From sequence record NC_129898.1: 64,000 nucleotides of DNA; one strand, given 5' to 3'. A program made the translations under genes and the position numbers. Numbering within the stretch: position 1 is the first letter of the stretch; each line of letters opens with the position of its first letter. Below the pieces are notes generated by a model, which was not told the DNA's origin, did not search any database, and saw only the letters and a list, made by a program, of their open reading frames with translations. Source of the stretch: a phage. Shown here piece after piece: positions 3,606 to 37,298 of the stretch.

Positions 3606-5673
3606 ATTCATGGCATCTGCATACAACCGTTTCGGTGAGCCAAACCCGAAAGCAACCAAATATAAAAGTGGGGGGAGTGTGAAACGAGACTATCGTGATG
3701 AAAAAGAGGTCGAAACTGTAGAGACTGTTTTAGAAAATACTAAAATTGTCCCTGTCCCACAACAAAATATCGGACTAATGGCTGCACAATACTTTGGTGT
3801 GCGATCAGCATTGTCTCAAGAAGATGGGGTAACGGTCACTGCAACATATTTCCCATATTACGACCGCTACGGTAATCTATCTGGCTTTAAAAAGCGCGAC
3901 TGGACAATCCCTAAAGAGCAAAGAGGCCATTTCTCAGTTGTTGGCATAGTAAAGGCCAACTCTCAGATGTTTGGTCAAAAGCTGTGTGCATCCTCCAACA
4001 ACCGCAAGCAGATTAACGTTTGTGAGGGGGAAGGGGATGTTATTGCAGCATGGCAAGCTGCATATCAGATACAAGTGAAAGGTATTCTCACCAATGCTAA
4101 AGCCCCCGCGAAGGTGAAGCAGTGGGCTAAAGAAGTTCAGGATGGGATCGATGCAGTTATCAACGGCGGCGATCTGGCAGGAAAACCCTGCCTGCCTTTT
4201 GTTGGAATTAACTGCGGGTGTGCAAACGCCGTAGATACTTTTGCTAACAATGAGAAATTTATCCGTAGCTACGGAACAGTGGTCCTTGCAATGGACAACG
4301 ATGCAGCTAACGAGGTAGAGAAGCAAAAACACGTTATCAAAGGTGTTGAGGCCACACATAATATCGCAGCATTTTTGATGGCTGATAACGTTTACCACGT
4401 GGAATACCCAGGTGAGGTAAACGACCCTGATGGTGTAAAAGATATTCGTGACATGCTGAAGGCTAAAAAGCTGGAAGATATTGTCAACATGTTCCGTCAC
4501 CCAGTTAAATATGTGCCCGATGCTGTATCTGATTTAGAAGACTTCTCCATTGAGTCTCTTCGTAAGAAGACTTCCAATGGCGTGGATATCAGTGCGGAGT
4601 TCCCTAAATTGCAGAAGATGCTGAAAGGGCTCCACAAAGGCACCTTGATGATGCTGACAGGTCCATCTGGCGGTGGTAAAACAACTGTAGCCAAGAAGCT
4701 GGAACACTGCATCGCAAGATACTTGATGGATCCAACATGCCCTAAAGCTGATGATTATGAAGAGGATGATCGCCTGTGTCTGATTCACCTTGAAGAGGAT
4801 CCTGAGGAAGCAATCAACTCTCTGTACGCTAACCAGTTGGGGTTTGATGTTAAAGAGTTTGTTGAAGACCCTAGTCAGTTCCTGACCGACCAGGAGCACG
4901 CTGAGATTCATCAATCTTGGGCCAAGGCCGGAAAAATCAAAGTGTTCAAGCATTTCGGCTCCATCCCTGTGGATGAGCTGATCACTAAGCTTAAACAAAT
5001 GGTGTGCCTGTATCACTGCCGTTACATTGTGCTGGATCACTTGTCTATGGTGATTTCAGGGCTTAATGTTAAGGATGAGCGCAAAGAACTTGACATGGCT
5101 ATGACCCAACTAGCTGCGTTCTGTAAGCAGTTTAATGTGTTTATCCTGGTGATTGCTCACCTGAAACGTACAGAGATTGTACCTCCTAAGGATAAGGATG
5201 GGAATCCGTTGCCTTTCTGGTACCCTGTACGAAAAGAGAACCTTCGTGGTAGTGCCGGATTGGAGCAACTCAGCTGGGTAGTTGTTGGGGTAGAAGCAGA
5301 AGAGATGGTGGATCGTTCTCGTGGGCGTGTCCGTCTAGTAGGTCTTAAAAACCGTCCAGCAAAAACGTTAGGTATTGCGGACACTTTAGTTATGGATCCG
5401 CACACAGGCAAGTTCCACGATGCCAGCAATTGGTACTGGGATAAAGAAATGCAAATGTTTACAGACGGAGAAGGTGGGGAGGTTGTTTGGAGACCTCAGG
5501 CTATGTTTGAGGATCAGGATCATGCAGTTGTGGAAACACCTATGGGCAAGGTTGTGGCTGATAAGGTTGTAACTCCTACTGTTACCCCAGTTGACACACA
5601 GGAAGACCTTCAGTATGATGATCCGTCCTCTAACCACGTTCCTGGTTTTGAAGACGACGAAACACCTTTTTAA
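3595..5673 (+). CDS. DNA primase-helicase (TOPRIM plus T7 gp4-like helicase)
   Basis: TOPRIM-like CEGEGDV and MDNDAANE; Walker A LTGPSGGGKTT; IVLDHLSMV like T7 gp4 helicase motif. Confidence 0.85.
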   Translation: MGSKFMASAYNRFGEPNPKATKYKSGGSVKRDYRDEKEVETVETVLENTKIVPVPQQNIGLMAAQYFGVRSALSQEDGVTVTATYFPYYDRYGNLSGFKKRDWTIPKEQRGHFSVVGIVKANSQMFGQKLCASSNNRKQINVCEGEGDVIAAWQAAYQIQVKGILTNAKAPAKVKQWAKEVQDGIDAVINGGDLAGKPCLPFVGINCGCANAVDTFANNEKFIRSYGTVVLAMDNDAANEVEKQKHVIKGVEATHNIAAFLMADNVYHVEYPGEVNDPDGVKDIRDMLKAKKLEDIVNMFRHPVKYVPDAVSDLEDFSIESLRKKTSNGVDISAEFPKLQKMLKGLHKGTLMMLTGPSGGGKTTVAKKLEHCIARYLMDPTCPKADDYEEDDRLCLIHLEEDPEEAINSLYANQLGFDVKEFVEDPSQFLTDQEHAEIHQSWAKAGKIKVFKHFGSIPVDELITKLKQMVCLYHCRYIVLDHLSMVISGLNVKDERKELDMAMTQLAAFCKQFNVFILVIAHLKRTEIVPPKDKDGNPLPFWYPVRKENLRGSAGLEQLSWVVVGVEAEEMVDRSRGRVRLVGLKNRPAKTLGIADTLVMDPHTGKFHDASNWYWDKEMQMFTDGEGGEVVWRPQAMFEDQDHAVVETPMGKVVADKVVTPTVTPVDTQEDLQYDDPSSNHVPGFEDDETPF

Positions 5674-5731
5674 TGTTTAACCAAGAGTGGGAGGGGTAGT
5701 ACAACCGCCTCCCCTTTAAGGAGAACTGTAT

Positions 5732-8155
5732 ATGAGTATGTGGTCTTTCGATCTGGAGGCCTCTGGCTTGCTGGAAGATCCAGATCTTTATTATCACTGC
5801 GGTTTGTTTAAAGAGCTGAATAAGAACCGTTTTATGCTGTTCCTTCCTCTAAATGACCGCACACACTACTCGGAAGAGGATGTAGAGAAGGCTAAGAACT
5901 TTATTCTGGCAAAGAGAACTCTTTATAAAGATTTTGAGGTTCGCATAGCAGATTTTTCAGAGTTGGAAGGTTGGCTTACAGGCAACTCAGACTGGTCACC
6001 TACGGCTTTGAACTGTCATAACTGCTACAGCTATGACTTTATGCTGATGGAAAGATTATCCGGTGTTCATTTTGATATGTTCCGTGATCCTAAATGTATG
6101 GGGACTATTAACGACCACCAGGTTAATCTGTTTGATACGTTGGCGATGAGTCGAATCTTGTGGCCTGACCGCCCTTTGCCAAAAGGTTGTCCGGACGCAG
6201 TATTCAATCCAGTTACCAAGAAAATGCAGCCTGTTGGGCCTCATGGCCTTATGGCATGGGGCTATGCCCTTGGTAACCAGAAAGTTCAAATCGATGACTG
6301 GCGTGAGCTTCCGCTGTGGAAGTATGTGGATCGTGTGTTCGAGGACGTTATCATCCAGGAGTTGCTCTGGAAAGAGTTGGTAGCGGAATCAAAAGGTGTA
6401 TTCTACGGCAAATCTGACATGCAGAACTTTATGTATGACCCTGCCAAAGAGAAGCCTAAAGGATTCAAGAAGATTACCTGGAAGAATGCATTACGCCGAG
6501 GCATGCTGCAGCATTTCCTGATGGAGCTGCAGGCTCGACAGGGTGTGTATTTCGACATAGATGGGGCTATTGCTTTACGTGACCGCTGCGATGCGTGGAT
6601 GAAAGAGATCGCTGATCGTGTTGAACCACAACTTCCTTTAAAAGAGTTATCAATGTCTCAGCGGCCTAAGTTCCCTGAAAAGCCGTTTAACCAGGATGGG
6701 ACAATCTCCAATAATGGTTGGAAATGGTTAAAAGACAAGCTTGGCTATCCTGTGGATATGAGCGCTTTAGAGTTCAAAGCTCCTCCTAAGCGAGCATTTA
6801 CCTCCACAGGGGATGTCAGTAAAATGGGGATAAAATGGTGTGAAGAGATGGGCTGTAAAGACCCAGATAAGATGGCTGATTTCTTGAGAGGGTATATCAA
6901 AGGAACTTCTACACCACACCCTTTACCTAAAGAGCTAATGGATCAGGCAATAAGTGACCTACAGCAGAAGCGAATGCCTGACTGCAAGATACCTATGAAA
7001 ATCAGCAATCAGGACGACATCAAGCGATACCTGATCAGTGCTGGTTGGCTCCCAACAATGTGGAGAACTAAGGATGTAACTAAAGACAGCAAGAAGAAAG
7101 CTCTGCCTGATGCTGATGTTGATGCACGAGTATATGCATATATGGACGAGCTTTTAGAGTCAGAGTATTGTGACCTAATTATCAACTTCTGGAACAAAAC
7201 TGATGCTAAGTTTCAGACAACCGTGCACAAGTTCCGAAGCTTCCCTAACTCAGAAAGGATTAAAAAGGAAGTGTTTGGGAAGATACGTAGAAAAGCCAGA
7301 GCGCTTATTACTTCTCCGCAACTGAAAGATACGTTTGGACACCTATGTCCGAATCTTGAAAAGTTGAACGGAGAGATGGCTAAAGATATCGTCTTGTGGT
7401 TATCCTTGCGAAACCGTAGATCGGTCCTTGATCCAATCAAGGAGGATAAGGTTGATACTGGTCTTCTTAATCATCCACGTTTGAAGATTGACCATAAGCT
7501 TCCTGCTAAAAGTTCTGGATTAACAAACACTTCCAGACAGAAACACAGCATTTGTGCAAACATGCCTAAACCATCTCCTAAAGTGGTTATGGGTAAAGAG
7601 ATGCGTAGTCTGTGGGGTGTTCCTCCAGGATACTTTGAGATCGGTATTGACGGGTCCAACTTAGAGCAGCTTATCGGGGCTTGGGGTGCCTTTGAGTTCG
7701 ACAACGGCCTGTACTATGATGTTGTAAGTAACGGGGACGCGCACCAAAACAATGCTGAGGCATATACAAAGGTAGCAGGTAGGGAGGTGTCTCGTAACGA
7801 TGGTAAACCTATCACGTATGGGGTTATGTATGGGGCACAAAAAGATAAAGTTGCAGATATGCTGGATATCTCTCCAGAGCTGGGGCAGAGAGTAATCGAT
7901 GCTCTCTGGGATGCCAACCCAGGCCTTAAGGGGCGTAAAGAGGATCTGGAGAAATTCTGGGAAGCAACAGGTAAGAAATTTATCTACTCTTTTGACGGTC
8001 ATGCCATTTGGACCCGCTCTAAACACTCTTTGCTTAATGCATATCAGCAAAATGGCGGTGCATCGTTGTGCGACTTGGTCGGAATCCTCATGCACCACCA
8101 AATGGTGAAGCGTGGATGGTATGATGAGGGTGTTCGTCGTATTATTTATTACCAT
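5732..8155 (+). CDS. DNA polymerase, family A (T7-like), exon 1
   Basis: FDLEASGL exo motif; GIDGSNLEQL (motif A) and RNDGKPITYGVMYG (motif B) align to T7 gp5; frame stops just before expected motif C. Confidence 0.85.
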
Positions 8156-8483
8156 AAATAACATTGTGGCTTCGTGCAGTGATGCACGTCGAAAACCTCT
8201 TTAATTGACGGGAAGGCTAAGTTGACTTTTACACCTAAACATGGTAAAAGCTCAATATGCTAATCCGCAGCGAAGCATCCGAGAGGATGAACGTTCAGAG
8301 ACTATCGAAAGCATAGCTCCAACACAGTTTGGGGTGAAGAAGCGAGTAGAGTAGGCCAGCAAGTGCGGTCGAAATGAGAGGTGCCTTGGTAACAAGGCAG
8401 TGAGATAGTCCGATCCATACGGGAAACTGTATGGCTATGCACGTAATGGTGCGGGGTAGCTTAACGACCTACCTGAACTATTG
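8156..8483 (+). ncRNA. group I self-splicing intron (ORF-less) in DNA polymerase gene
   Basis: 328 nt break between YYH and DEYQ; exon ends in U, intron ends in G; UUGUGG guide can pair CCAU|AA; P7-like CAGAGACUA (8296-8304) and UAGUCC (8406-8411). Confidence 0.65.
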
Positions 8484-8837
8484 GATGAGTACCAACTTCA
8501 AGTCCCTGACACACCTAAGTATAAAACTGTATACACCTTCGACACAATTGAAGAGCTGGAAACATTTAAGTCCCAGCAGGAGGCTAAACTTCATGTGTTC
8601 GACGGTCATAAGTACAAAAAGGCACGCAAGGATGAAGAAGGAAACGAAGTAGTTGACAGTGATGGAAATACGGTATACGATCCTATCTTGAACGATGACG
8701 GAAAGCTTGAACTTATCTGGAGCCCTGTGGGCGAAATGGTGGTACATTGCTTCTGGCAAGCTTCTAAAATGATGGGCGTTCCGTTCCAGATCACAGGTGA
8801 ATACTTGTGTGGACGTAACTGGGGCGATTGTCACTAA
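8484..8837 (+). CDS. DNA polymerase, family A, exon 2
   Basis: Joining restores motif C as YYHDEYQLQV (T7 AWVHDEIQV); C-terminus NWGDCH resembles T7 PNWAICH. Confidence 0.7.
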   Translation, partial: DEYQLQVPDTPKYKTVYTFDTIEELETFKSQQEAKLHVFDGHKYKKARKDEEGNEVVDSDGNTVYDPILNDDGKLELIWSPVGEMVVHCFWQASKMMGVPFQITGEYLCGRNWGDCH

Positions 8838-8886
8838 TGTAAACTATCAACACACGGAAGTGTTGTTAGACAGAGAGGAGACTTTT

Positions 8887-9171
8887 ATGGTAGTAGAACC
8901 GACAAAAACATTCACCTCCATGACTATTCCTGTTATTATGCAGGTAGAGTGCGTTCAGGTGTCCCAAGTGTGGCCAGGTACTAAAATTCCAACAGGGCCT
9001 GATTTCTTCCAGGTTGGAAAGGTGTACAATGTATGGAAGGCACCGGATTGTTACCCTTTCATTAAAGATGACCGTGGAATGTTATGGTATCTAGGAAATG
9101 ATTTGACACTGCATCTTGGAAATGCTATTATTGCAGTGTTCCGGCTCAACAAGAAGGAGACAGATCAATGA
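8887..9171 (+). CDS. hypothetical small protein (KDDxG...W family)
   Basis: GAGGAG RBS before ATG 8887; motif IKDDRGMLWYL shared with neighbouring paralogues. Confidence 0.5.
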   Translation: MVVEPTKTFTSMTIPVIMQVECVQVSQVWPGTKIPTGPDFFQVGKVYNVWKAPDCYPFIKDDRGMLWYLGNDLTLHLGNAIIAVFRLNKKETDQ

Positions 9172-9395
9172 CAACTTTGGTTAAAGCTACGTTTGTAGAA
9201 GAAAAGATGACAGGCTTGTCATTCTTTAAAGAAGGAAAGACCTACAAGGTTTATTACGATAAGGATCGCGGAAACAATATGATCGAAGACGAGGAAGGTA
9301 TTTCCTGGTATATCTCTCACCTGGCAAATGGTGAGTATCATATCTATGGAACCACCCTACTTGCCAAGTTTGTAGCTGTTGAAGAGGATCTATGA
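9168..9395 (+). CDS. hypothetical small protein (KDDxG...W family)
   Basis: Start overlaps upstream stop; IEDEEGISWYI motif. Confidence 0.5.
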   Translation: MTTLVKATFVEEKMTGLSFFKEGKTYKVYYDKDRGNNMIEDEEGISWYISHLANGEYHIYGTTLLAKFVAVEEDL

Positions 9396-9586
9396 AAGTA
9401 AAGTATCTGGCTGAAGGTATGAGTAGGTATTTTACCCTTGGAGAAGAGTATTGGCCCTTTACGGAAAATGGAGATGTATACGTGAAGGATGACCAAGGTG
9501 TGCCGTGGTTTCTGCACCATAATGGGTTGGGGTATTCCATCTACTGCGGTGCAGTGAACAACACAACCCTTGCAGAGTTTGTCTAG
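9392..9586 (+). CDS. hypothetical small protein (KDDxG...W family)
   Basis: Start overlaps upstream stop; VKDDQGVPWFL motif; MKVK N-terminus. Confidence 0.5.
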   Translation: MKVKYLAEGMSRYFTLGEEYWPFTENGDVYVKDDQGVPWFLHHNGLGYSIYCGAVNNTTLAEFV

Positions 9587-9596
9587 AGGAGGCAGA

Positions 9597-9968
9597 ATGT
9601 TAGTAAAAGGTACCCACACAGTCAAGCAACGTATTGAAGTTGAGATCGATGATTGTGAGCTGAAGCATATTTTACGGTCATGCTCCAACGTTTTGCTCCT
9701 TAGTATTCTCCAGGAGCGAGCGGAGAGCGAGTTCCTAAATGCACTAGCAGGCCGTCCTGGGGACTTCTGTGTGCGTAAGCGTGAAGATCATAAGTCATGG
9801 TTGTGGGAAATCGATGCCGACTGGGATTACCACAAAAATGAGGGCATAGATGAGCCTATTCGTGAATTGACAGATAAAGAGATTCAGATGTACAATGAAG
9901 TTTGTCATTGGGCAAAACGCCAACAAATTTACCTCGACCCTGTGTGGATGATTGAAAATAGCCATTGA
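9597..9968 (+). CDS. hypothetical protein
   Basis: GAGGAGG RBS before ATG 9597; no recognisable motif. Confidence 0.5.
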   Translation: MLVKGTHTVKQRIEVEIDDCELKHILRSCSNVLLLSILQERAESEFLNALAGRPGDFCVRKREDHKSWLWEIDADWDYHKNEGIDEPIRELTDKEIQMYNEVCHWAKRQQIYLDPVWMIENSH

Positions 9969-10044
9969 CAAGAAGTAAGATTGGATATAAGATGCTTCAC
10001 ACAAACAGAGAGTTGATTTTTAAATAATTGAGGAGACTGCTAAG

Positions 10045-10299
10045 ATGCAAATCACTTTGAAGCCAGAATGCGTTGCAAATGACCGAGCTTTTAAAGATTG
10101 CACAATCGGTGCAATTTATGAAGCAGAGTTTTGTGAGAACCCTCTGGTAAAAGCTCTTCTGGAAGAAGGGACCTATTTATCACAAGAAGAACTTGATGAG
10201 TTGGAAAACTCAGCCCAGTGCCTTACCTTTAAAGATGATGAAGGAGATTCTGTCTGGTGCACCGTTAACGAAGTAGTTTTTGTAAAACCTGAGCATTAA
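10045..10299 (+). CDS. hypothetical small protein (KDDxG family)
   Basis: GAGGAG RBS; DRAFKDCT and FKDDEGDSVWCT shared with 10363-10635. Confidence 0.5.
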   Translation: MQITLKPECVANDRAFKDCTIGAIYEAEFCENPLVKALLEEGTYLSQEELDELENSAQCLTFKDDEGDSVWCTVNEVVFVKPEH

Positions 10300-10362
10300 T
10301 ACTTGACAACAGCGATAGGGCCTAATATAATGGTCCTATCAAAACGAAAGGAGACCACAACA

Positions 10363-10635
10363 ATGACCAAACAGTATCAACGAATTAAAGCCAAGGTTAA
10401 GCCAGACTACTTGGAGAAGGACTCTGCTTTTCGAGACTGCACCGCAGACAAAGTTTACACAGGTGCCGTTCTGTTAAACGACGAATTTGAAGTGGATGTG
10501 CTGGGTAAAGAGGCTACTATCAAGGACGACCAGGGAGATTATGTTTGTTGCACCACCAGAGAGCTGGAGGTATTAGAATACTTCGGTGAAATCTTCACCT
10601 CTCTTGATGATTACTTAGATGACGAGGAAGAGTGA
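10363..10635 (+). CDS. hypothetical small protein (KDDxG family)
   Basis: AAAGGAG RBS before ATG 10363; DSAFRDCT and IKDDQGDYVCCT; acidic tail. Confidence 0.5.
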   Translation: MTKQYQRIKAKVKPDYLEKDSAFRDCTADKVYTGAVLLNDEFEVDVLGKEATIKDDQGDYVCCTTRELEVLEYFGEIFTSLDDYLDDEEE

Positions 10636-11036
10636 TGAAAAACATTTGGGATATTAATATCTTTGAAGCCTCTGAGCTTGACGGTGCCGATGGTGTTATT
10701 ATAGTTTCTGATGGAAAGGTAACATTGACCTCTGGACTGACCTACTATGACACTACCTACGTATTGGGCGATCTTGCCTTGTTGAAATCAACAGGCGACT
10801 CTCTGGAAGAACGTCTGCAAGGATTTGCCTTTAAAGAAGGCACAAACACCACACTGATGTGCACTACACGCACTGTTCAGTTGGGCAACGGGGTATATAT
10901 GGTCATTGCAGTGTGCCCCAAATTCAGCAACATTAATAAAGATGATGCTGACGCTGTCAACGACGTGGTTGTCCTCTTCGTGGGTGACGCTATGGCAGAT
11001 CTGATGAATGCAGGAGAAGCAGCAAATGAAGACTGA
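10632..11036 (+). CDS. hypothetical protein (134 aa)
   Basis: Start overlaps upstream stop; no recognisable motif. Confidence 0.5.
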   Translation: MMKNIWDINIFEASELDGADGVIIVSDGKVTLTSGLTYYDTTYVLGDLALLKSTGDSLEERLQGFAFKEGTNTTLMCTTRTVQLGNGVYMVIAVCPKFSNINKDDADAVNDVVVLFVGDAMADLMNAGEAANED

Positions 11037-11328
11037 AAACATTACACCAGAAGGATTCCTGAAAGTATACCGTGAACTATTGTATACCACAGAGGATAGT
11101 GTTCTAGAGTACCCAGAATATCTTTTGCTGTATAAGTATCTGCAGGAAGCTGGTGAAAATCTTCCAATTAGCGCAGAAGGTGGTCCAAACTGGGTCTACA
11201 GTGCATGGAGAAAGGTTGACATTCTCCCAGATCCCGGTAAAGATATGGTAGTTTGGCAGCTTATCAACAACATCGGGATTCCAATCTTTGATGAAGCTGT
11301 TAAAATCTATTTTGAACTTGACGATTAA
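11026..11328 (+). CDS. hypothetical protein
   Basis: Overlapping ORF; start 11008 or 11026 uncertain. Confidence 0.45.
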   Translation: MKTENITPEGFLKVYRELLYTTEDSVLEYPEYLLLYKYLQEAGENLPISAEGGPNWVYSAWRKVDILPDPGKDMVVWQLINNIGIPIFDEAVKIYFELDD

Positions 11329-11344
11329 TATCAGGAGACTTAAG

Positions 11345-11590
11345 ATGGCTGAAGTAGTTGCTCGTGCAGGACAGAAAGTGCGTTGTGTTGAAGTGGGTTT
11401 TGGTGGCAAAGGGTGTCAAAACTTGACTCAAGGTAAGGAATACACTGTTATTTCTGGCGGTGGTGACGAAAGTATTGTGTTCGATGATCATATTCTGGAT
11501 GCTGAAAACTTTGAAATAATTGACGATGATGGTGATCCGATCACCTGCCTGCTGAACGGGAGTTGGGGAACTTTCGAAGTAATTGGCTAA
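11345..11590 (+). CDS. hypothetical small protein
   Basis: CAGGAGA RBS; IDDDGDPITCLLNGSWG motif related to KDDxG family. Confidence 0.5.
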   Translation: MAEVVARAGQKVRCVEVGFGGKGCQNLTQGKEYTVISGGGDESIVFDDHILDAENFEIIDDDGDPITCLLNGSWGTFEVIG

Positions 11591-11627
11591 CAAATACCTG
11601 TTGTAATTTACAGAAGGAGATGCTAAA

Positions 11628-12038
11628 ATGGTGTCTCCTTTATGTTGTTCAAATAAAATCGGAGATTCCACAATGGAACAAATGAACGATCAAGCGTCGG
11701 TTGCGATGAACGAGCAAGAACAACCTCAAGACTTTTTCTTAGGGTTAAGCAAAGATCAAGTGTCTCTTCTGTTGGTACTTTCTTCTTTCATGGGGAGACT
11801 TCAGGAGCTTACACAACAACCGGAGGCTGAACAGTTATTTCAGGCCCTGCGTGAAGAAGAAAAATATCGTCGTTTGGATTATGCCTTAGGTTGGGTAGCT
11901 CAACAACGAGATATGCTAATGGCCCTTTCTGGGACAACAAGTTTTGCAATGGGACTGTTGGCTCAAGTCCAGGACAAATTAATTCAGGCAGGGTTTGCAA
12001 ACACAGCGACCACTAACGAAGAACAAGGAGACAAATAA
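11628..12038 (+). CDS. hypothetical protein (136 aa)
   Basis: ORF ends TAATG overlapping next gene; no recognisable motif. Confidence 0.45.
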   Translation: MVSPLCCSNKIGDSTMEQMNDQASVAMNEQEQPQDFFLGLSKDQVSLLLVLSSFMGRLQELTQQPEAEQLFQALREEEKYRRLDYALGWVAQQRDMLMALSGTTSFAMGLLAQVQDKLIQAGFANTATTNEEQGDK

Positions 12039-13309
12039 TGAGCGTTATTCAACAATTCACCAACCCGATGAATCCGCGTGAAACTGTTTTACTGGCTCAC
12101 GGTATGATTAAACGTGTCAGCATCAAGCCTATCAAAGGTGCTGATCCTACAACAGGTATTAAAACCACTGTGTGGCAAGGTAAGAAAATCGAGTCCAGTC
12201 ACACCATCTCTTTACTGATTTCTGAACTGGATTCTTCTGATAACCTACTTCAAGGTGGTGAAGAAGTTTGGATCAGCATGGGTGATAAATTGCTCAAACC
12301 CGGTCATCAAGATTCCGTCTCTGTTAAAATTGATGACAAGTGGGAAACAGTAACGCCAGGATGGATCGTAAATATCCCTTTAAAGGCAAATGAGCATAAC
12401 GGTAAGACCTACTACAAAGGCTCATTGGCTAAAATGGTTAAGCTGGGGGCAGGAGATGCTCCAGCAGCCCCACAGCAACAAAAACAGCAACAAGGCACAC
12501 AATCACAAGGCCAGAAGCAGAAACCTCAGCAGAATGCCAATCAGGACGTTTTACGCATCTATGGTGATGTGACTCAGATTGTTGGTAACGTGGTTACTGT
12601 CAATGACCACAAGATTGGCGAAGGTGCTATGGTTGTCTCCGATGAGCAGCTTAAAGACCTGGTGGTTGGCGGTCGTGTTGCAGCTATTGTTGACAAAGAC
12701 ACCGGGAATATTATCAGCGGCTTCAAGGCCTACCCGCCTAAAGCAGAGAACGGTACACAAGGTTCTGGTGGTAAGCGTAAATCCTCTTACGACCCCATCG
12801 GTGTAGAGACAGGGCACAGTATCAATGCGTTGCAGATCATTCTGGATCGCGGGTTTAAGATTGACAGTCCTTTAGATGTGGCTAAAACACTGCACGTGGT
12901 CACCATCGAGCTTAAGAAAGAGTACGCTCAAGCCACCAACCGAACTGAAGATGAAGTAGGTGCCAGTGTTGGTAATGCGGTATTGAACGCTTGTCGCCGT
13001 ATTGACAAGAAGACGAAAGTTGATGATTTTGCAGTAGCAATTACTGCAGAGGCAAAAGATGTCTTGACTAATCTTGCTGAACCGTTGTATGATTGGATCA
13101 AGAACGGTGCTGGAGCCACTGACCATCAAGAGCCTCAAGCTGCCAAACAGGAAGCCTCCCCACAGCAAAACACTGTAGACGCCCCTCCTGTAGATGATGC
13201 GGAAGATGACCCAATGGATCAGAATCCAGCACAGTATGACTTCTGTGATGACATACCTTTCGCTCCGGTGGGTTTGCAATATGGCAAAAGTAGAATCCAC
13301 GCATTGTAA
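12038..13309 (+). CDS. putative single-stranded DNA-binding protein (SSB-like acidic DDIPF motif)
   Basis: Q-rich linker; acidic region ending DFCDDIPF (matches bacterial SSB tail DDDIPF) but frame continues 16 codons; position after polymerase as in T7-like modules. Confidence 0.4.
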
Positions 13310-13904
13310 GAGGTGCATCAAGTGCGGAGAGGTGAAAAACCTCTCCGAGTTCTACAAACACCCAAAGATGTCTGACGGTCATCTTAATAAGTGCAAAGAG
13401 TGTTGTAAGAAGGCCAGTAGGGAGGCTGACCAGTTTTCCCACGACTCTTCAGAAAAAGGTGTAATACGCGTGTTGTACAAGGCTCAAAAGTGCAACAGCA
13501 AGCAAAGAGGTCACCCTCCTCCGACTTACACCAAAAAAGAGTTTAAGGAGTGGCTATACCTGAACGGTTACAAAGAGTTGTATGACCAGTGGGTAGCCAG
13601 CGGATACGACAAAAGGAAAAAGCCCTCTTGTGACAGGATAGATGATTTCAAAGGGTACTCTTTTGATAATATCCGTTTAACGACCTGGGGAGAAAATAAA
13701 GACAAGCAGACGGAGGATATTCTGTTGCATAGAAGCACCAGCGGTAGACGGTGTAAAAATGTAAGGAGGTTGGACATGAATGGCAACGTTCTTAAAGAAT
13801 GGGTATCCCACAATTCTTGTAGAAGAGAAACCGGAATATGTGTTGATTACTACATTCATGAAAAAATTCCAGCTCCCGATGGATACCTCTATGAATACTT
13901 TTAG
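13281..13904 (+). CDS. HNH_3-like endonuclease-like protein with N-terminal zinc ribbon (possible free-standing homing endonuclease)
   Basis: [11 protein letters not shown]...KCKECC zinc ribbon; [23 protein letters not shown] resembles HNH_3 core with His positions replaced; start overlaps end of SSB-like gene. Confidence 0.45.
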
Positions 13905-14745: not shown

Positions 14746-15171
14746 ATGACCTATGAAATGCCAAAACTGATTCGTGATGATGCCCAAAACGCTCACACCA
14801 TTATTATGGGCAAACGCATGGATATTATTTGTCATAAAGATTTCTGGGAAGGAAGTTACTTCACAGAGTATTTTGGTAAACTGGACAATGGTCTGCTGAT
14901 CCAGTTCTACACCGATGCGGAAAACAACATTCACTGGGAGTTCGAAACTGAAGATATCCATAAACTTTTCACCTTCCTCGGTATCAAGGTTGAGGCCAAG
15001 TTTGAAGAAGGTGAGTGCGACGATTGTGGATTCTACGAGGTAACAGATTTCTATCTTCCGAGTGGTGAGAACCTTTACTATGAAAGCCACTTCGGTAACT
15101 CTAATATGCCACAGAGCTGGACTGAGTTTTTTGAAATTGTGGAAGAGGAGCTGGCATATCGTGATTATTGA
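14746..15171 (+). CDS. hypothetical protein (141 aa)
   Basis: ORF; no recognisable motif. Confidence 0.5.
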   Translation: MTYEMPKLIRDDAQNAHTIIMGKRMDIICHKDFWEGSYFTEYFGKLDNGLLIQFYTDAENNIHWEFETEDIHKLFTFLGIKVEAKFEEGECDDCGFYEVTDFYLPSGENLYYESHFGNSNMPQSWTEFFEIVEEELAYRDY

Positions 15172-15619
15172 TACTGTAGAGGGAGATTTAATCTCCCTTT
15201 TTAAGAGCGGCACTGGTCACCTGATCCACGGTTGTAACTGCTTCCACACAATGGGTAAGGGTGTAGCAAAACAGATTGCCCGTGAGTTCCCTCAAGCATT
15301 GGAAGCTGATAAAACGACTACCTACGGTTGCCTAAGTAAGCTAGGTGCGTTCTCTCGGTGGGAGCACTTATCTCCGAAAGGTATTGTATACGGAATCAAT
15401 CTGTACACTCAGTTCTACCCAGGGCCTAATGCTGAATATTTCTCAATTCTGAAAGGCTTTGAGCGAGTCAATGAGATATTTAAGGGATCGACTTTACCAT
15501 TCTACATCCCTAAGATTGGGTGCGGCATAGGCGGCTTGAAGTGGGGACACGTGGAGGACGTTATTAACCTTGCCACTTTTGATATAGATATTATCGTGGT
15601 GGAGTACAAAGAGTGTTGA
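15159..15619 (+). CDS. macro-domain protein (ADP-ribose binding / possible ADP-ribosyl hydrolase)
   Basis: GDL...IHGCNCFHTMGKGVAKQI and IPKIGCGIGGL resemble macro-domain signatures; GTG start after GAGGAG inferred. Confidence 0.6.
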
Positions 15620-16683: not shown

Positions 16684-16929
16684 ATGAACAAAGGGTGGAC
16701 ATTCGTAGACGGCGTTGAAAACATGCCTCTTGGAAAGTATATCGTAGCCATGGCTGACGAGAATGGCAATGTAGATTTCGGAGCTTGCGAGGTTGTTCTT
16801 GCAGGATCTGGTGACTATGTGCACAAAACTGGGGTAATTAATGGTCAGTTCTACTTTGATCACAACCCTGTTGTAGCGTATACGGCTATGCCAGAGTTCA
16901 AGTTCCCAAAGGAGGGTGCCGATGTTTAA
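16684..16929 (+). CDS. hypothetical small protein
   Basis: AGGAGA RBS; DENGNVDFG motif. Confidence 0.45.
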   Translation: MNKGWTFVDGVENMPLGKYIVAMADENGNVDFGACEVVLAGSGDYVHKTGVINGQFYFDHNPVVAYTAMPEFKFPKEGADV

Positions 16930-17116
16930 GCTTAAATCTGCATGGAACATTGCTGTAGGTGATGAGATCCGCATTCCGGGTGGGAAGACCGTTATGAAGA
17001 TATCTCGTATTGAATACGAAGGTGACCGTGTATTCCACATTTTTGCAAAAGATGGTCGAGAAATTTATATACAGGCAGGCTCACACATCTATATTCGTAA
17101 AGGGGATGACAAATGA
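16916..17116 (+). CDS. hypothetical small protein
   Basis: Overlaps upstream stop; IFAKDGREIYI motif. Confidence 0.45.
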   Translation: MPMFKLKSAWNIAVGDEIRIPGGKTVMKISRIEYEGDRVFHIFAKDGREIYIQAGSHIYIRKGDDK

Positions 17117-17454
17117 CAGAGATCATCATTTCAACTGCAGGGTATGTATTCCTGACAATCATTGCGCTGATCATCTTGGTGGTGGTGTATGGATTTGTTA
17201 TCCTGCCTATTCTTGAGACATTTAGTTTGTGTCGGTGTTGGAGAAAGGCTTACGGACCACAGCCGTGGAAAGACTGGCCTCATCTGTTACGCATAGCGTT
17301 CTCCTATGCCTATGATCACTCCAGCAGTGCATGCATAACTGGGTACCACGCCCACAATTGGAACTGGGAAGGGTTGGGGAGATGGAATGTTACAAAGACT
17401 ATACCTCTACGCATGTACAAAGGAAAAGGTGGGATTGATGGGAATACCTGTTAA
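17113..17454 (+). CDS. hypothetical membrane protein
   Basis: Hydrophobic N-terminal segment (TM helix). Confidence 0.45.
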   Translation: MTEIIISTAGYVFLTIIALIILVVVYGFVILPILETFSLCRCWRKAYGPQPWKDWPHLLRIAFSYAYDHSSSACITGYHAHNWNWEGLGRWNVTKTIPLRMYKGKGGIDGNTC

Positions 17455-18082
17455 AGACAGAAAAGTATGTGGTCGTGGAGTAAACGATTTAAAAGACAAA
17501 GTCCCAATGTACCAATCTGTTAATGGTAAGAGAGTACCAGAACCCCACTATGCTACATGGAAAGCATTATTCCAGAGGTGCTACGGCGATAACTCAAAGT
17601 ACCATACAGGTTGTGAAGTTGTAGAAGATTGGTGGTTGTTCTCAGAATTCTGGAAATGGATGGATACACAAGAGTGGAAAAGAGACGCTAAGAAGTTCAC
17701 TCTTGACAAAGATCTGAAAATCCCTGGAAACAGAATATACTCCCCAGAAACATGCATGTTTGTTCCACCACAAATAAACACCCTATTTGGCATAAGACAG
17801 GCAGCACGAGGGGATTTACCTTTGGGTGTGACACTTAGAAAAGATGTAAACAAGTATCTCGTGCATTGTCATCGAGATGGAAAAATTGTTCATGGCGGTC
17901 ATTTCGATGATCCACAGACAGCACACAAGGTGTGGCAAGAAATGAAACTTGAGGAGATGAAACTTCAGGCTATTAAAAACAAAGATGAGATTTGGCTGTT
18001 CGCCATTAAACGTGCAATAACTATCCTTGAGAATGATTTGAAAAATAATAAGGAGACTATAACATTGGTGAAATTTATTTAA
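17438..18082 (+). CDS. hypothetical protein, possible homing-endonuclease-associated DNA-binding protein
   Basis: HYATWKALFQRCYG...GCEVVEDWWLFSEFWKWM pattern recalled from phage HNH/AP2-type proteins; no catalytic motif identified. Confidence 0.4.
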   Translation: MGIPVKDRKVCGRGVNDLKDKVPMYQSVNGKRVPEPHYATWKALFQRCYGDNSKYHTGCEVVEDWWLFSEFWKWMDTQEWKRDAKKFTLDKDLKIPGNRIYSPETCMFVPPQINTLFGIRQAARGDLPLGVTLRKDVNKYLVHCHRDGKIVHGGHFDDPQTAHKVWQEMKLEEMKLQAIKNKDEIWLFAIKRAITILENDLKNNKETITLVKFI

Positions 18083-32368: not shown

Positions 32369-32686
32369 TTAACGTTCTACAAAAATACCGTTCAGTTCAA
32401 TAACCAGGAATTTCTGGTCTTCACTATCGTCACGAGCCAGCACCTCGCAGACGTAGCGGTCATCTCCGTCATCATCACAGTCAAATACAAGGCTGAGGAC
32501 TTTATCATGATAAATCTTCGACACTACTGCCTCGTAAGTATTGCCGATTGTGAATCCAAGATAATCCCCGATGCATTTGACAACAACATGGTCGCCAGCA
32601 TTTAAGTCAATCTTCGTCATTACTGTGCTCCTTGGGTGATAATATGGTATGTAAAACTTTAACCAGAGATGTGAATAACGCCCCAA
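32369..32686 (-). CDS. hypothetical small protein
   Basis: ORF; start uncertain. Confidence 0.4.
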   Translation of the reverse strand: MGRYSHLWLKFYIPYYHPRSTVMTKIDLNAGDHVVVKCIGDYLGFTIGNTYEAVVSKIYHDKVLSLVFDCDDDGDDRYVCEVLARDDSEDQKFLVIELNGIFVER

Positions 32687-33416: not shown

Positions 33417-33745
33417 TAGTCTTCCTCCAGGTTCAAAGGTCCTAAGATTTCATATGCTAGATTAGAAGTTACCAGAGGGTCTTCTGCATCTTTAGTATTA
33501 TACCATCCGTGAATAACCAGAGTCCCACTTTGCTTCATGTCTAACTGGAACTGTTCTGCCGTTTCCTCATCCATCTCCAAGATCTCCATGAGGTATTTGA
33601 TGTTAGGAAGGTATGCAGCTGTTACAGTCCCCTCTACCAGGCCTTCAGGCCAACCTACATCCGGATGACAAGTAGGGACCAGAGAGGTCAGCTTGATAGT
33701 GTATGCTTTTTCTGCACGAGCCTTCAGTAACGGATCAATTTTCAT
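33416..33745 (-). CDS. hypothetical small protein (MK-I/V family)
   Basis: MKIDPLL start; overlapping start/stop with neighbours. Confidence 0.45.
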   Translation of the reverse strand: MKIDPLLKARAEKAYTIKLTSLVPTCHPDVGWPEGLVEGTVTAAYLPNIKYLMEILEMDEETAEQFQLDMKQSGTLVIHGWYNTKDAEDPLVTSNLAYEILGPLNLEED

Positions 33746-34095
33746 TATTCTTCCTCCTCTTCGGTGCCTGCTTCCAGTAGTAAGTTAAGAACATCTTCAG
33801 CAGAAGGTTCGTAGAACTCTTGGCCTTCGTTGTCGATGATGCGATAGTCATCACCCCGAATAATCAGAGGATCGTCATCAAAACCTTCAAGACCTTTAAC
33901 AACGACAACACGGTCGATTGCCATCATTGTAAGAACTTTATCGACATCTTCCTCTGCTACACCATACTGCAGCAGAATGTCTTTGGTAGGAGGGACAGCA
34001 TCCACCACAACACCGTTACCAAAACCTTCCGGAAGTTTAGCTAAAATATCTTCCGGAACCACATTCATATCAAAACCTGTGATCTCTACTTTCAT
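33745..34095 (-). CDS. hypothetical small protein (MK-I/V family)
   Basis: MKVEITGFD start; acidic tail. Confidence 0.45.
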   Translation of the reverse strand: MKVEITGFDMNVVPEDILAKLPEGFGNGVVVDAVPPTKDILLQYGVAEEDVDKVLTMMAIDRVVVVKGLEGFDDDPLIIRGDDYRIIDNEGQEFYEPSAEDVLNLLLEAGTEEEEE

Positions 34096-34432: not shown

Positions 34433-34828
34433 TTACTGAAACAGTGCAGATAAATTACCTTCTGGTGGGAACTTATCTGCCAAGAACGGAGTCAGAACAG
34501 TGGCCTTCTGAAGATCTGGAGTCCACTCGTTGTTCAGAACATCCCAGTAGTACGCAATGTTGCTGTGTGGGTGCCGCATTACGAACTTTTTCCCTTCGTA
34601 GTCAGTTGAAACCTCTACAGAAGAAATAACAACAGAATCTTCAAGAGTTTCTTCATAGAAAGATCCACCCTCGAATTTCCAACGAGATGCAAGAGCTCCT
34701 GCCTTAAACGCTGCAGATAACGGACTGTCGGCAAGAACATACATTTCTTGCACTCTGTCGCTACGATCTTTGCTTCTTACGTTGTATACAGTATCTGAGC
34801 TATACTCAACACGGTATAGACTTACCAT
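34433..34828 (-). CDS. hypothetical protein (paralogue of 36644-37042)
   Basis: AGALASRWKFEG and KFVMRHPHSNIAYYWDVLNNEWTP match paralogue. Confidence 0.5.
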   Translation of the reverse strand: MVSLYRVEYSSDTVYNVRSKDRSDRVQEMYVLADSPLSAAFKAGALASRWKFEGGSFYEETLEDSVVISSVEVSTDYEGKKFVMRHPHSNIAYYWDVLNNEWTPDLQKATVLTPFLADKFPPEGNLSALFQ

Positions 34829-35160
34829 TACCGCACCTCCTCAATAACTTCCACATCTGAACCTACCACAAATGCAAAAGGGCAGGTTTCATGAAAGACA
34901 TCCGGATCGCCGCCAAGCTTGCTAACTATTTCTCCACCACTAATAAACACAAGCTCACCGATATTCATCAGATTGCTGAAATAGTATCCATAATGATTAA
35001 AGAATGCAGCAGGGTCAGGCAGACTGGTAGCCTCAAGCTCTACATCGGTTGAGATTACTTTCTTATCATACCCTCTGGCCTTTTGAGATGCAAGATCTGC
35101 AGAATCCTCAGGCGACCGGAGATGCACAGGAATTGTTTCACCAATAAAGCGTACTTTCAT
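34828..35160 (-). CDS. hypothetical small protein (MKV family)
   Basis: MKVRFIGE start preferred; DVEVIEEVR tail. Confidence 0.45.
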   Translation of the reverse strand: MKVRFIGETIPVHLRSPEDSADLASQKARGYDKKVISTDVELEATSLPDPAAFFNHYGYYFSNLMNIGELVFISGGEIVSKLGGDPDVFHETCPFAFVVGSDVEVIEEVR

Positions 35161-35164
35161 ATTC

Positions 35165-35428
35165 TCACCCAACAACCATAGCTTCAAAAGGGGTCATAAA
35201 CGAATAAACAGCATTATCATCTGCTTCAGGAAATGCCCCCAAAGACTTCATGTCTGAGCCCTTGACAAATACAAGGTTCTGATCAAAAGCTTCTTGTGGA
35301 TCAATCCGATACATATTTCGTAGGGTATCACTTACCTCCTCATCAAGAGGTGAGTATGCTGTGCACGTTTTTCCGATCAAGCTTTGAGAATCAGGATATC
35401 CACCTGAAGTTTTAAAATAAACAATCAT
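35165..35428 (-). CDS. hypothetical small protein (MKV family)
   Basis: VKGSDMKSLGA motif shared with family. Confidence 0.45.
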   Translation of the reverse strand: MIVYFKTSGGYPDSQSLIGKTCTAYSPLDEEVSDTLRNMYRIDPQEAFDQNLVFVKGSDMKSLGAFPEADDNAVYSFMTPFEAMVVG

Positions 35429-36643: not shown

Positions 36644-37042
36644 TCAGTCTAGCTTTTCTTCAACAACCCCGTAGCTCGGGGCAGAGTCAAGAGCTTTTTG
36701 GTTTAAAAGTGGTGTAGCAGAATCTGCAAACGGTGTCCAAGTTTTTGTTCTGGCATTCCAGTAATGCTTCACTCTGGAATCTGGATGCACTATAACAAAA
36801 ACTTTTTCACTTGTCAACACATTAATTTCTTCTACACCCTTGCTGATAATTTCTCCGTCATAGCCCCCAGTCTGGTATCCTTCGTACCAGGTTCTTGCAT
36901 AGGCATAGCCAGCCTGCCAGCATGCAGCCTCCTCCGAGGTGGAGACTACGTAGAAGTCTTTCTCAAATTCTGGGATACGTCCTTGCTTTACGCTCCAAGC
37001 TCCGCGAATTTTCATTGTTACTTTGAAAAGCTTGTTCTTCAT
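36644..37042 (-). CDS. hypothetical protein (paralogue of 34433-34828)
   Basis: AGYAYARTWYEG and VFVIVHPDSRVKHYWNARTKTWTP. Confidence 0.5.
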   Translation of the reverse strand: MKNKLFKVTMKIRGAWSVKQGRIPEFEKDFYVVSTSEEAACWQAGYAYARTWYEGYQTGGYDGEIISKGVEEINVLTSEKVFVIVHPDSRVKHYWNARTKTWTPFADSATPLLNQKALDSAPSYGVVEEKLD

Positions 37043-37043
37043 A

Positions 37044-37298
37044 CTACCGCTCTACAATCTCTACGTCTGTTCCTACACCGAAGGCATAGTAATGTTCTTC
37101 CCCAAAGTAATACTTGGGGACACCAGCTTTGATCAGGTCTAACCCGCGAATAAATACCACACCGTGTGATACAGTGGAATGCTTCTGACGCACAGGATCG
37201 TTGTCAGGCAACCATTCAAAGTACACCGCAGGTACAACCTTCCCTTTAAGAAAGGATTGCCCCAAGTAGACGTTAGAATCAAGAATTTTGACCTTCAT
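37044..37298 (-). CDS. hypothetical small protein (MKVK family)
   Basis: MKVKILDSNVYLGQ...IRGLDLIKAG...DVEIVER. Confidence 0.5.
   Translation of the reverse strand: MKVKILDSNVYLGQSFLKGKVVPAVYFEWLPDNDPVRQKHSTVSHGVVFIRGLDLIKAGVPKYYFGEEHYYAFGVGTDVEIVER

What the first reader, a model, noticed from the sequence alone, without database searches (positions are those of the whole stretch)
8887..11590. Second small-protein paralogue family on the + arm
Proteins at 8887, 9168, 9392, 10045, 10363 and 11345 (and possibly 16684, 16916) share a hydrophobic-K/E-D-D/E-x-G-x-x-W/V core (IKDDRGMLWYL, VKDDQGVPWFL, IEDEEGISWYI, FKDDEGDSVWCT, IKDDQGDYVCCT). 10045 and 10363 also share D(R/S)AF(K/R)DCT. One member begins MKVK like the - arm family.
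Basis: seen in the sequence. Interest (0 to 1): 0.5.

Follow-up and report, generated by a model that had tools for sequence, protein, structure and literature searches.

The report
Small beta-barrel phage paralogue family
Six small early genes beside the DNA polymerase gene of an rV5-like E. coli phage are diverged copies of one small beta-barrel domain; the one copy modelled is predicted to have the rare fold of phage Bas11 Gp54, a protein that sets off the bacterial CapRel defence, but what these proteins do is still unknown.

Summary
The window is a Vequintavirus (rV5/FV3-like coliphage). In the window's 146-ORF proteome, [ILVFM][KEI]D[DE]xG occurs six times, only in the six named proteins (0.76 expected).

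Pairwise statistics support only two groups:
- A: 8887, 9168, 9392.
- B: 10045, 10363.

Profiles enriched with divergent orthologues and outside homologues join all six:
- 11345 to A plus outside homologues: hhalign P 3.8e-6; outside-only HMM E 5e-5.
- B to the rest: hhalign P 3.8e-5, 54 columns; 1 of 300 column shuffles reaches it.

16684 and 16916 are not members. 32369-32620 (-) is a probable seventh member.

All six genes are under purifying selection (dN/dS 0.01-0.14).

Outside homologues occur singly, as 2-5 tandem repeats, or fused to DUF3310. The four outside loci examined all lie in phage early/replication modules.

Function is inferred only: most likely early protein-binding accessory factors (host takeover, anti-defence or defence-sensed). 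This is a new member of a known kind and of moderate interest.

The parts
8887..9171 (+). p8887, 94 aa, subfamily A. It has an N-terminal extension; the motifs are FFQVGKVYNV and IKDDRGMLWYL.
   Evidence: Ribosome-binding site GAGAGGAGA before the ATG. dN/dS 0.01. Smith-Waterman z 10.9 to p9168. Outside-only HMM E 1.3e-6. Own family phrog_12922.
9168..9395 (+). p9168, 75 aa, subfamily A. This is the member that was modelled. The motifs are FFKEGKTYKV and IEDEEGISWYI. Its start overlaps the p8887 stop as ATGA.
9392..9586 (+). p9392, 64 aa, subfamily A. The motifs are YFTLGEEYWP and VKDDQGVPWFL. Its start overlaps the p9168 stop as ATGA.
   Evidence: Smith-Waterman z 10.3 to p9168. Outside-only HMM E 1.4e-9. 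dN/dS 0.11.
10045..10299 (+). p10045, 84 aa, subfamily B. The motifs are DRAFKDCTIGAIYEA and FKDDEGDSVWCT, with a roughly 30-residue insert between strands 2 and 3.
   Evidence: Smith-Waterman z 11.9 to p10363 and hhalign 7.5e-11. Expanded B profile against the rest of the superfamily P 3.8e-5. dN/dS 0.10-0.13.
10363..10635 (+). p10363, 90 aa, subfamily B. The motifs are DSAFRDCTADKVYTG and IKDDQGDYVCCT, followed by an acidic C-terminal tail DDYLDDEEE.
11345..11590 (+). p11345, 81 aa, a third subfamily. The motifs are NLTQGKEYTV and IIDDDGDPITC.
   Evidence: Outside-only HMM E 5.1e-5 with 0 of 200 decoy proteomes reaching it. hhalign P 3.8e-6 against A plus outside homologues. Its family phrog_4927 is also hit by the 5-repeat protein P0094 at 2e-18. 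dN/dS 0.12-0.13.
32369..32620 (-). Probable seventh member on the minus arm, 83 aa: GDHVVVKCIGDYLGFTIGNTYEAVV...FDCDDDGDDRYVCEV.
   Evidence: hhalign P 1e-4 over 71 columns against the superfamily profile. HMM scores 12.4-13.5; no decoy reaches 12.4 with the A5 profile, and 1 in 200 decoy proteomes reaches 12 with the S2 profile. Own family phrog_12851, with a cross-hit from Bas11 gp61.
10303..10331 (+). Perfect sigma-70 consensus (TTGACA-17-TATAAT), ending 32 nt upstream of the p10363 start.
   Evidence: 12 of 12 matches in the promoter scan. This is a consensus match only; transcription was not measured.
9965..9993 (+). Sigma-70-like site (TTGACA-17-TAAGAT) upstream of p10045.
   Evidence: 10 of 12 matches. 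Consensus match only.

Best explanation
What it is. The six + strand genes, and probably 32369-32620 on the minus strand, are anciently diverged paralogues of one small domain. The proteins are 60-95 aa and mostly acidic. The shared signature is an aromatic or Cys-Thr pair, then x-G-K-x-Y-x-V at the start of strand 2, then h-x-D-D/E-x-G-x-x-(W/V) forming the strand 3-4 hairpin. The one subfamily A member modelled is predicted to fold as the rare six-stranded barrel seen in the crystal structure of Bas11 Gp54. The subfamily B member modelled is predicted to be a five-stranded SH3-like version with an extra C-terminal helix.

How it most likely works (inferred). The genes appear to be transcribed early by host RNA polymerase, and they are not virion components. 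I think each copy is a compact protein-binding module that docks on a host or phage partner. One possible mode is the one the cited paper reports for Gp54 on CapRelSJ46: the terminal strands come loose and the remaining strands extend the partner's beta-sheet. The conserved residues would keep the scaffold, and the variable surfaces would let different copies hit different targets. This fits host takeover, anti-defence, or conversely being sensed by defence systems.

Shown: paralogy, purifying selection, the predicted fold match, copy-number change between lineages, and the genomic context.
Inferred: early expression, binding as the activity, and any relation to defence.
For: Family:
- Smith-Waterman z 10-12 within A and within B.
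- An HMM built only from outside homologues finds p9168, p9392, p8887 and p11345 at E 1e-10 to 5e-5. No decoy in 200 shuffled proteomes reaches the p11345 score.
- hhalign: 11345 family against A plus outside homologues P 3.8e-6; outside-only profile against B P 5.6e-4.
- hhalign: B against the rest P 3.8e-5 over 54 columns spanning strands 1 to 4; 1 of 300 column shuffles reaches it.
- PHROG cross-hits tie phrog_12623, 12802, 12922, 3523, 3249 and 4927 together through P0094, P0098 and P0090.

Real genes: dN/dS 0.01-0.14 in three comparisons per gene.

Fold:
- p9168 pLDDT 92.3, pTM 0.81, no templates used.
- The two motifs fall on the same secondary-structure elements in the A and B models.

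Scaffold-like behaviour:
- The same domain occurs singly, as 2, 4 or 5 tandem repeats, and fused to DUF3310.
- Subfamily A has 3 copies here and 5 in a divergent lineage.
- BFVD (predicted viral protein structures) holds many small uncharacterised coliphage proteins with this fold, TM 0.6-0.8.

Early or accessory character:
- Sigma-70 consensus sites in front of the B genes.
- Position just after the primase-helicase and polymerase genes.
- No clear counterparts in the matching region of other Vequintavirinae genera.
- Net charge -4 to -13 for five of the six.

Gp54 precedent: it binds CapRelSJ46 directly (Kd 0.8 uM), with strands 1 and 6 unfolding, and it is non-essential (PMC11578894).
Against: - No function has been tested for any member.
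- No sequence similarity to Gp54 is detectable (hhalign P 0.09-0.16; Gp54 is phrog_7421 with no cross-hit). The fold match could therefore be convergence.
- The link from B to the rest depends on profiles I assembled. With the original shallow profiles it was marginal: P 0.0044, with 5 of 300 shuffles reaching it.
- The D-x-G-x-x-W hairpin also turns up in unrelated beta-propeller and other repeat proteins, so the motif alone is weak evidence.
- Promoter matches are consensus hits only.
- The paper reports that close homologues of Gp54 do not trigger CapRelSJ46, so no defence phenotype can be transferred to these proteins.
Confidence: 0.5

Rival explanations
1. Replisome or nucleotide-metabolism accessory modules. 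The barrels would be adaptor subunits that tether or regulate phage replication or nucleotide-kinase proteins, and would not be directed at the host.
For: - Every locus examined places family members inside replication modules. In the window they follow the primase-helicase and DNA polymerase genes.
- P0094 lies between DnaB-like helicase and Toprim primase genes, with RecA downstream.
- P0090 and P0095 lie near Prim-Pol or D5-type primase genes and DUF3310 genes.
- P0098 fuses two copies to a DUF3310 domain of the 'nucleotide kinase' type.
- p10363 ends in an acidic tail, DDYLDDEEE. From my own knowledge, this is reminiscent of the tails of phage single-stranded-DNA-binding proteins that contact replisome partners.
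Against: - The genes are not conserved next to the polymerase in other Vequintavirinae genera whose polymerase is 60-66% identical. That argues against a core replisome role.
- Early accessory genes of many phages sit beside replication genes for transcriptional reasons alone.
- Copy number varies from 3 to 5 between close lineages.
Confidence: 0.25
2. Two or three unrelated small-protein families that merely share a convergent beta-hairpin motif. A (with 11345) and B would not be homologous.
For: - Pairwise A against B z is 2.3 or less.
- Ortholog-level hhalign E is 0.07 or more.
- HMMs score p10045 at noise level.
- The B model matches generic SH3 domains and not 9AXB.
- B shares no PHROG cross-hit with the rest.
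- The same hairpin motif produces false hits in beta-propeller and other repeat proteins.
Against: - Expanded profiles align over 54 columns, covering strand 1, the G-K-x-Y strand and the hairpin, at P 3.8e-5, and only 1 of 300 column shuffles reaches this.
- An outside-only profile against B gives P 5.6e-4.
- The divergent B ortholog L018_8457 carries the canonical T-K-G-K-V-Y.
- The motifs sit on equivalent secondary-structure elements in both models.
- The B genes lie between A and 11345 in one 2.7-kb cluster.
Confidence: 0.12
3. Small virion-associated (decoration or minor structural) proteins.
For: - One repeat of P0094 and Bas11 gp61 weakly hit phrog_14592 'virion structural protein'.
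- A BFVD fold hit is a 78-aa phage isim protein annotated 'putative minor capsid protein'.
Against: - The genes lie in the early/replication arm, with sigma-70 consensus sites.
- The structural annotations are unverified labels.
- I could not find the isim protein in this cluster.
- The paper describes Gp54 as non-essential.
Confidence: 0.05
4. Nucleic-acid-binding small barrels (Sm, cold-shock or KOW-like) acting on phage or host RNA or DNA.
For: - The genomic context is a replication module.
Against: - Five of the six proteins are strongly acidic (pI 4.1-4.9, net -4 to -13), with no basic patch evident in the sequence.
- No Pfam nucleic-acid-binding family is matched.
Confidence: 0.05

Closest known systems
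Gp54 of Escherichia phage Bas11 (JohannLBurckhardt), PDB 9AXB; trigger of the CapRelSJ46 fused toxin-antitoxin defence (Nature 2024, PMC11578894)
   Same: - Small (66 aa) and mildly acidic.
- Encoded among small early ORFs of a lytic coliphage, with function unknown.
- The best (non-significant) sequence register puts the near-invariant Gly of F-x-x-G-K-x-Y on Gp54 G24, the site of the G24D escape mutation, and G-x-x-W on Gp54 S-G-L-T-W.
   Different: - No significant sequence similarity (P 0.09-0.16). Gp54 belongs to a different PHROG (7421) and lacks the K-D-D-x-G hairpin.
- Gp54 is a single-copy gene of Drexlerviridae and relatives (215 records). Here there is a 6-7 member array in a 137-kb myovirus.
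- CapRel activation is specific even among close Gp54 homologues, so it cannot be assumed here.
SH3-like small beta-barrels (SH3, FeoA, KOW and GW domains)
   Different: - The modelled subfamily A member has a sixth strand in place of the 3-10 helix.
- No sequence relation to any Pfam SH3-clan family.
- The scores are in the range expected for generic small barrels.
PHROG families of unknown function phrog_3523 (multi-repeat, 315 aa), phrog_3249, phrog_4927 and phrog_16833, and the N-terminal repeats of DUF3310 proteins of Enterococcus phages (for example vB_EfaS-DELF1)
   Same: Same sequence domain. P0090, P0094, P0095 and P0098 hit these PHROGs and also the window's own PHROGs (12623, 12802, 4927). 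The A profile retrieves them from 1.84 billion representative proteins.
   Different: - Those proteins carry 2-5 tandem copies or a C-terminal DUF3310 domain, whereas the window proteins are single-domain.
- None has a known function, so the comparison adds distribution and not mechanism.

Membership tests
Bas11 Gp54-like proteins (PDB 9AXB; phrog_7421) | Six-stranded small beta-barrel with a prominent loop between strands 1 and 2 | tested here: met
Bas11 Gp54-like proteins (PDB 9AXB; phrog_7421) | Detectable sequence homology to Gp54 | tested here: not met
   hhalign of the A3, A5 and S2 profiles against a 6-sequence Gp54 family alignment gives P 0.086, 0.16 and 0.14. An HMM search of PDB sequences does not return 9AXB. 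Gp54 hits only phrog_7421.
Bas11 Gp54-like proteins (PDB 9AXB; phrog_7421) | Direct binding and activation of CapRelSJ46 | not testable with these tools
   This needs co-expression toxicity or binding assays. The paper shows that even close Gp54 homologues fail to activate.
The + arm small-barrel superfamily defined here (signature x-G-K-x-Y-x-V ... h-x-D-D-x-G-x-x-W/V; linked to phrog_3523, 3249 and 4927) | Significant match to a profile built without the candidate itself | tested here: met
   - p9168, p9392, p8887, p11345: outside-only HMM E 1e-10 to 5e-5.
- 11345 family: hhalign P 3.8e-6.
- Subfamily B: hhalign P 3.8e-5, with 1 of 300 shuffles reaching it. HMM E is only 0.008-0.6.
- 32369-32620 (-): hhalign P 1e-4.
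The + arm small-barrel superfamily defined here | Membership of the two hedged candidates 16684-16929 and 16916-17116 | tested here: not met
   Smith-Waterman z 1 or less against all six. hhalign P 0.35 and 0.15 against the superfamily profile. Separate PHROGs 7252 and 14110 with no cross-hits.
SH3-like small beta-barrel fold class | Five-stranded barrel superposable on SH3 or SH3-like domains | tested here: inconclusive
Any curated Pfam family or PADLOC defence model | Score above the curated threshold | tested here: not met
   No Pfam hit reaches its gathering score for any of the eight proteins. No PADLOC hit at E 0.1 or better.

The most novel reading that the evidence does not exclude
The fold that the Gp54 paper called very rare in nature may in fact be the scaffold of a large, unrecognised and fast-evolving superfamily of phage early proteins. 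In this reading the superfamily spans Vequintavirus, Drexlerviridae, Enterococcus phages and others, as single domains, tandem repeats and fusions. Its members would work as metastable strand-swapping binders aimed at host defence or takeover targets. The 6-7 copy array in rV5-like phages would then be an anti-defence or decoy arsenal, and some of its members would be the unknown triggers or inhibitors that explain how defence systems act on Vequintavirinae.
Probability: 0.2. Interest if true: 0.7.

Novelty: new member of a known kind. Interest (0 to 1): 0.4.

Why it matters
- It turns six or seven 'hypothetical proteins', filed under six or seven separate PHROGs, into one domain family with a confident structural model for one member and an experimentally solved structural relative.
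- It suggests that the Gp54 barrel, described as nearly unique, recurs widely in phage early regions.
- It gives a short, testable list of candidates for defence triggers or anti-defence factors in Vequintavirus phages. Close relatives are in the BASEL collection (for example AlexBoehm, JeffSchatz, RudolfGeigy), where genetics and defence-system panels already exist.

If the proteins turn out to be ordinary accessory genes, the result is still a useful annotation but nothing more.

Tried and rejected
Searches that found nothing further:
- Word-indexed homologue searches and tblastn of p9168 and p10363 against phages found only Vequintavirus orthologues.
- A degenerate-pattern scan of IMG/VR with the B alignment gave 2 close loci only.
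- HMM searches of PDB sequences gave only noise.
- Pfam and PADLOC gave nothing.

Hits and links rejected:
- Five of the 16 hits of the exhaustive search (P0089, P0091, P0093, P0096, P0099) are beta-propeller or other repeat proteins that match only a short stretch of the profile. I rejected them as chance.
- Sequence link to Gp54: rejected as unsupported.
- Link to the minus-arm MKVK family: rejected.
- 38584-38871 (-) as a member: too weak. Outside-only HMM E 1.6e-3, but hhalign P 0.015 and it drops with better profiles.

Other negative results:
- No DNA-level repeats within 8800-11700, so there has been no recent duplication.
- Syntenic regions of Mydovirus, Seunavirus, Certrevirus and a phi92-like phage hold no clear homologue. 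The best is a 64-aa Certrevirus ORF at E 0.005.
- Literature searches for Vequintavirus escape mutants or triggers in these genes found nothing relevant.
- I could not locate the isim 'minor capsid protein' fold hit.

Full report
**Setting**

The 3.7 kb around the finding is 96% identical to Escherichia phage FV3 and 90-96% identical to more than 100 other Vequintavirus (rV5-like) genomes. GC skew and ORF density show + strand genes up to about 30 kb and minus strand genes beyond.

The finding lies directly downstream of the primase-helicase and DNA polymerase genes, in a run of short ORFs. Public records annotate all of them as hypothetical proteins.

**Observation**

All quoted motif strings are present.

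In a 146-ORF proteome derived from the window, [ILVFM][KEI]D[DE]xG occurs six times, only in these six proteins. Residue shuffles give a mean of 0.76 and a maximum of 4. The pattern was chosen after seeing the data, and paralogy reduces the six occurrences to about three independent events.

A second shared element, G-K-x-Y preceded by FF, YF, CT or LT, lies 10-36 residues upstream in all six.

All six are real genes under purifying selection, with dN/dS 0.01-0.14 against three other genomes. The three subfamily A genes are joined by ATGA stop-start overlaps. No DNA-level repeats remain, so the duplications are old.

**Is it one family?**

Pairwise Smith-Waterman scores against 1000 shuffles support only two groups:
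- A: 8887/9168 z 10.9, 9168/9392 z 10.3, 8887/9392 z 5.1.
- B: 10045/10363 z 11.9.
- 11345 is marginal to B (z 3.9 and 2.1).
- A against B is at noise level (z 2.3 or less).

hhalign on shallow ortholog alignments says the same, and PHROG cross-hits stay within A and within B. All three word-indexed searches and two tblastn searches returned only Vequintavirus orthologues.

The exhaustive HMM search with the A alignment found just 16 proteins at E 1e-3 or better among 1.84 billion representatives. Five are unrelated repeat proteins that match only a short stretch of the profile. The true outside homologues are informative:
- P0097 has a single domain.
- P0095 and P0098 have two tandem copies. 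P0098 also carries a C-terminal DUF3310 domain and resembles a protein of Enterococcus phage DELF1.
- P0090 has four copies.
- P0094 has five copies.

An HMM built only from these outside repeats finds the following in the window proteome:

| Protein | E-value |
|---|---|
| p9168 | 1.3e-10 |
| p9392 | 1.4e-9 |
| p8887 | 1.3e-6 |
| p11345 | 5.1e-5 |

No decoy in 200 shuffled proteomes reaches the p11345 score. P0094 also hits p11345's own family, phrog_4927, at 2e-18. hhalign of A plus outside homologues against the 11345 family gives P 3.8e-6 over 62 columns. So 11345 belongs with A.

Group B was at first only suggestive: hhalign P 0.0044, reached by 5 of 300 column shuffles. A divergent Vequintavirus-like contig (L018, from an E. 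coli assembly) then supplied orthologues at 46-65% identity and two extra A copies. Its p10363 ortholog reads DCTKGKVYDG, the canonical motif.

With these added to both sides, the superfamily profile (no B sequences) against the B profile gives probability 71%, P 3.8e-5, over 54 columns running from strand 1 through the hairpin. One of 300 column shuffles reaches this score. The outside-only profile against B gives P 5.6e-4. I therefore accept B as a divergent branch, at roughly 85% confidence.

Other candidates:
- 16684 and 16916 fail every test.
- 32369-32620 (-) scores P 1e-4 over 71 columns and is a probable extra member.
- 38584-38871 (-) is too weak.

The minus-arm 'MKVK' proteins are a separate, real family with no detectable link to this one.

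**Structure**

AlphaFold2 without templates, run on the A alignment, gives p9168 a pLDDT of 92.3 and a six-stranded barrel with a long loop between strands 1 and 2.

I extracted the Gp54 sequence and five homologues. No significant sequence similarity to the window family exists (P 0.09-0.16). The best register does align F-K-x-G and G-x-x-W, placing the family's near-invariant Gly on Gp54 G24. This detail is tentative.

Foldseek of the p9168 model against BFVD (predicted viral protein structures) lists dozens of small uncharacterised proteins at TM 0.6-0.8. Most are from Drexlerviridae, with up to four per genome. Others are from Cronobacter phage CR9, phAPEC8 and the DELF1 DUF3310 protein.

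**Distribution and context**

- Each of p9168, p10363 and p11345 has close tblastn matches (80% identity or more) in about 115 phage records, essentially all Vequintavirus. p11345 also has 9 distant hits in Klebsiella, Erwinia, Pantoea and Aeromonas phages.
- The corresponding regions of four other Vequintavirinae lineages (polymerase 60-66% identical) hold no clear homologue.
- Subfamily A copy number is 3 here and 5 in L018.
- Bas11 itself encodes weak sequence-family members, gp61 and gp48, in addition to Gp54.
- The outside homologues P0094, P0090 and P0095 all lie in phage replication modules.
- A perfect TTGACA-17-TATAAT ends 32 nt upstream of p10363, and a 10 of 12 site precedes p10045.
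- Five of the six proteins are acidic, with net charge -4 to -13.

**How it most likely works**

Shown:
- One diverged domain family.
- Purifying selection.
- A Gp54-like predicted fold for the modelled subfamily A member.
- Modular reuse as repeats and fusions.
- Lineage-specific copy number.
- Location in an early/replication region.

Inferred:
- The proteins are early, non-structural, protein-binding modules.
- The residues conserved across the family (an aromatic before the Gly, Gly, Tyr, the Asp-Gly turn, Trp or Val, and a C-terminal aromatic) look like core and turn positions. If so, selection would keep the scaffold while the surfaces diverge. This is what is expected of binders aimed at different partners.
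- The Gp54 precedent suggests binding by partial unfolding and strand addition.
- Whether the partners are host defence or takeover targets (my preferred reading, about 35%) or replisome or nucleotide-kinase proteins (about 25%) cannot be decided here.
- The acidity argues against nucleic-acid binding, and the genomic position argues against a virion role.

**Comparison and novelty**

By fold, the nearest known protein to the modelled member is Gp54 of Bas11. By sequence the family is not a member of the Gp54 family, and I keep these two statements apart in the membership table. There is no Pfam family, and PHROGs splits the window members across separate families of unknown function.

I found no paper that links these proteins to one another or to Gp54. 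I rate the finding as a new member of a known kind: small Gp54-like or SH3-like barrel proteins of phage early regions. Interest is moderate (0.4). Paralogous small ORFs are commonplace in large phages, but the fold link gives an experimental handle and suggests the 'rare' barrel is widespread.

**Limits**

- Only two structures could be predicted, and the models could not be superposed on each other.
- The B link rests on profiles I assembled from few, partly similar sequences.
- Promoters are consensus matches only.
- No functional data exist for any member.

Noticed in passing
window 8146-8433 (+): A group I intron (Rfam RF00028, 75.6 bits, E 2e-17) interrupts the DNA polymerase gene. The exon ORFs are 5732-8161 and 8481-8837. 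Phage LL12 annotates the same gene as intron-interrupted. Phage isim has an HNH endonuclease gene between the two polymerase ORFs; this window does not.
   Followed up: partly
window 13194-13904 (+) and 17387-18082 (+): Two endonuclease genes: phrog_1035 'endonuclease VII'/HNH-like at E 2e-41, and phrog_953 HNH endonuclease at E 5e-65. Neither has a Pfam hit. The first is absent from the corresponding position in LL12 and isim, so it is probably a mobile endonuclease insertion.
   Followed up: partly
window 15062-15619 (+): A 185-aa protein with a Macro domain (Pfam PF01661, above the gathering score; phrog_335 'phosphatase') in the same early arm. It is a possible ADP-ribose-related host-takeover or anti-defence gene.
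   Followed up: no
window 34828-35187, 35165-35428, 37044-37298, 37279-37512, 40911-41144 (all -): A separate, real paralogue family of small 'MKVK...VEIVE' proteins on the minus arm (BLASTP down to 1e-15; family HMM also picks up 34828-35187 at 4.5e-6). No sequence link to the + arm family (hhalign P 0.07 or more).
   Followed up: partly
window 34433-34828 and 36644-37042 (-): Another pair of paralogues, about 131 aa each (BLASTP E 5e-9, 28% identity over 111 residues).
   Followed up: no
window 32369-32620 (-): An 83-aa acidic protein (phrog_12851) that matches the + arm superfamily profile over nearly its full length (hhalign P 1e-4). It resembles Bas11 gp61. It is a probable family member on the opposite arm.
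   Followed up: partly
L018 (AATLQU010000010.1, 93813-106016), genes at 4930-7111 and 7771-8043: A divergent Vequintavirus-like contig from an E. coli assembly has five subfamily A copies instead of three, and an Ead/Ea22-like gene inserted among them. A homologue (34% identity) of the window's minus-arm gene 33745-34095 sits inside the + arm cluster. Small genes therefore move between arms and their copy number changes.
   Followed up: partly
window 8400-12100 against GenBank phage records: Sixteen records named 'Campylobacter phage' (MG0656xx) are about 90% identical to this E. coli Vequintavirus region. The host label of those records looks doubtful.
   Followed up: no
L002 (Bas11, MZ501085.1) 17370-17555 (+) and 12579-12944 (-): Besides Gp54, Bas11 encodes gp61 (61 aa, FIAGKTYQAKY...VVDEDGDARYL) and gp48 (121 aa). 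Both weakly match the window family's profiles (E 0.03 and 0.017 among 1012 ORFs). So the sequence family and the Gp54 fold co-occur in one Drexlerviridae genome.
   Followed up: partly
window 11008-11328 (+): The 106-aa protein between p10363 and p11345 matches Pfam DUF7238 (30.7 bits against a gathering score of 27). It is 96% identical in the divergent contig L018, far more conserved than its neighbours, which are 46-70% identical.
   Followed up: no
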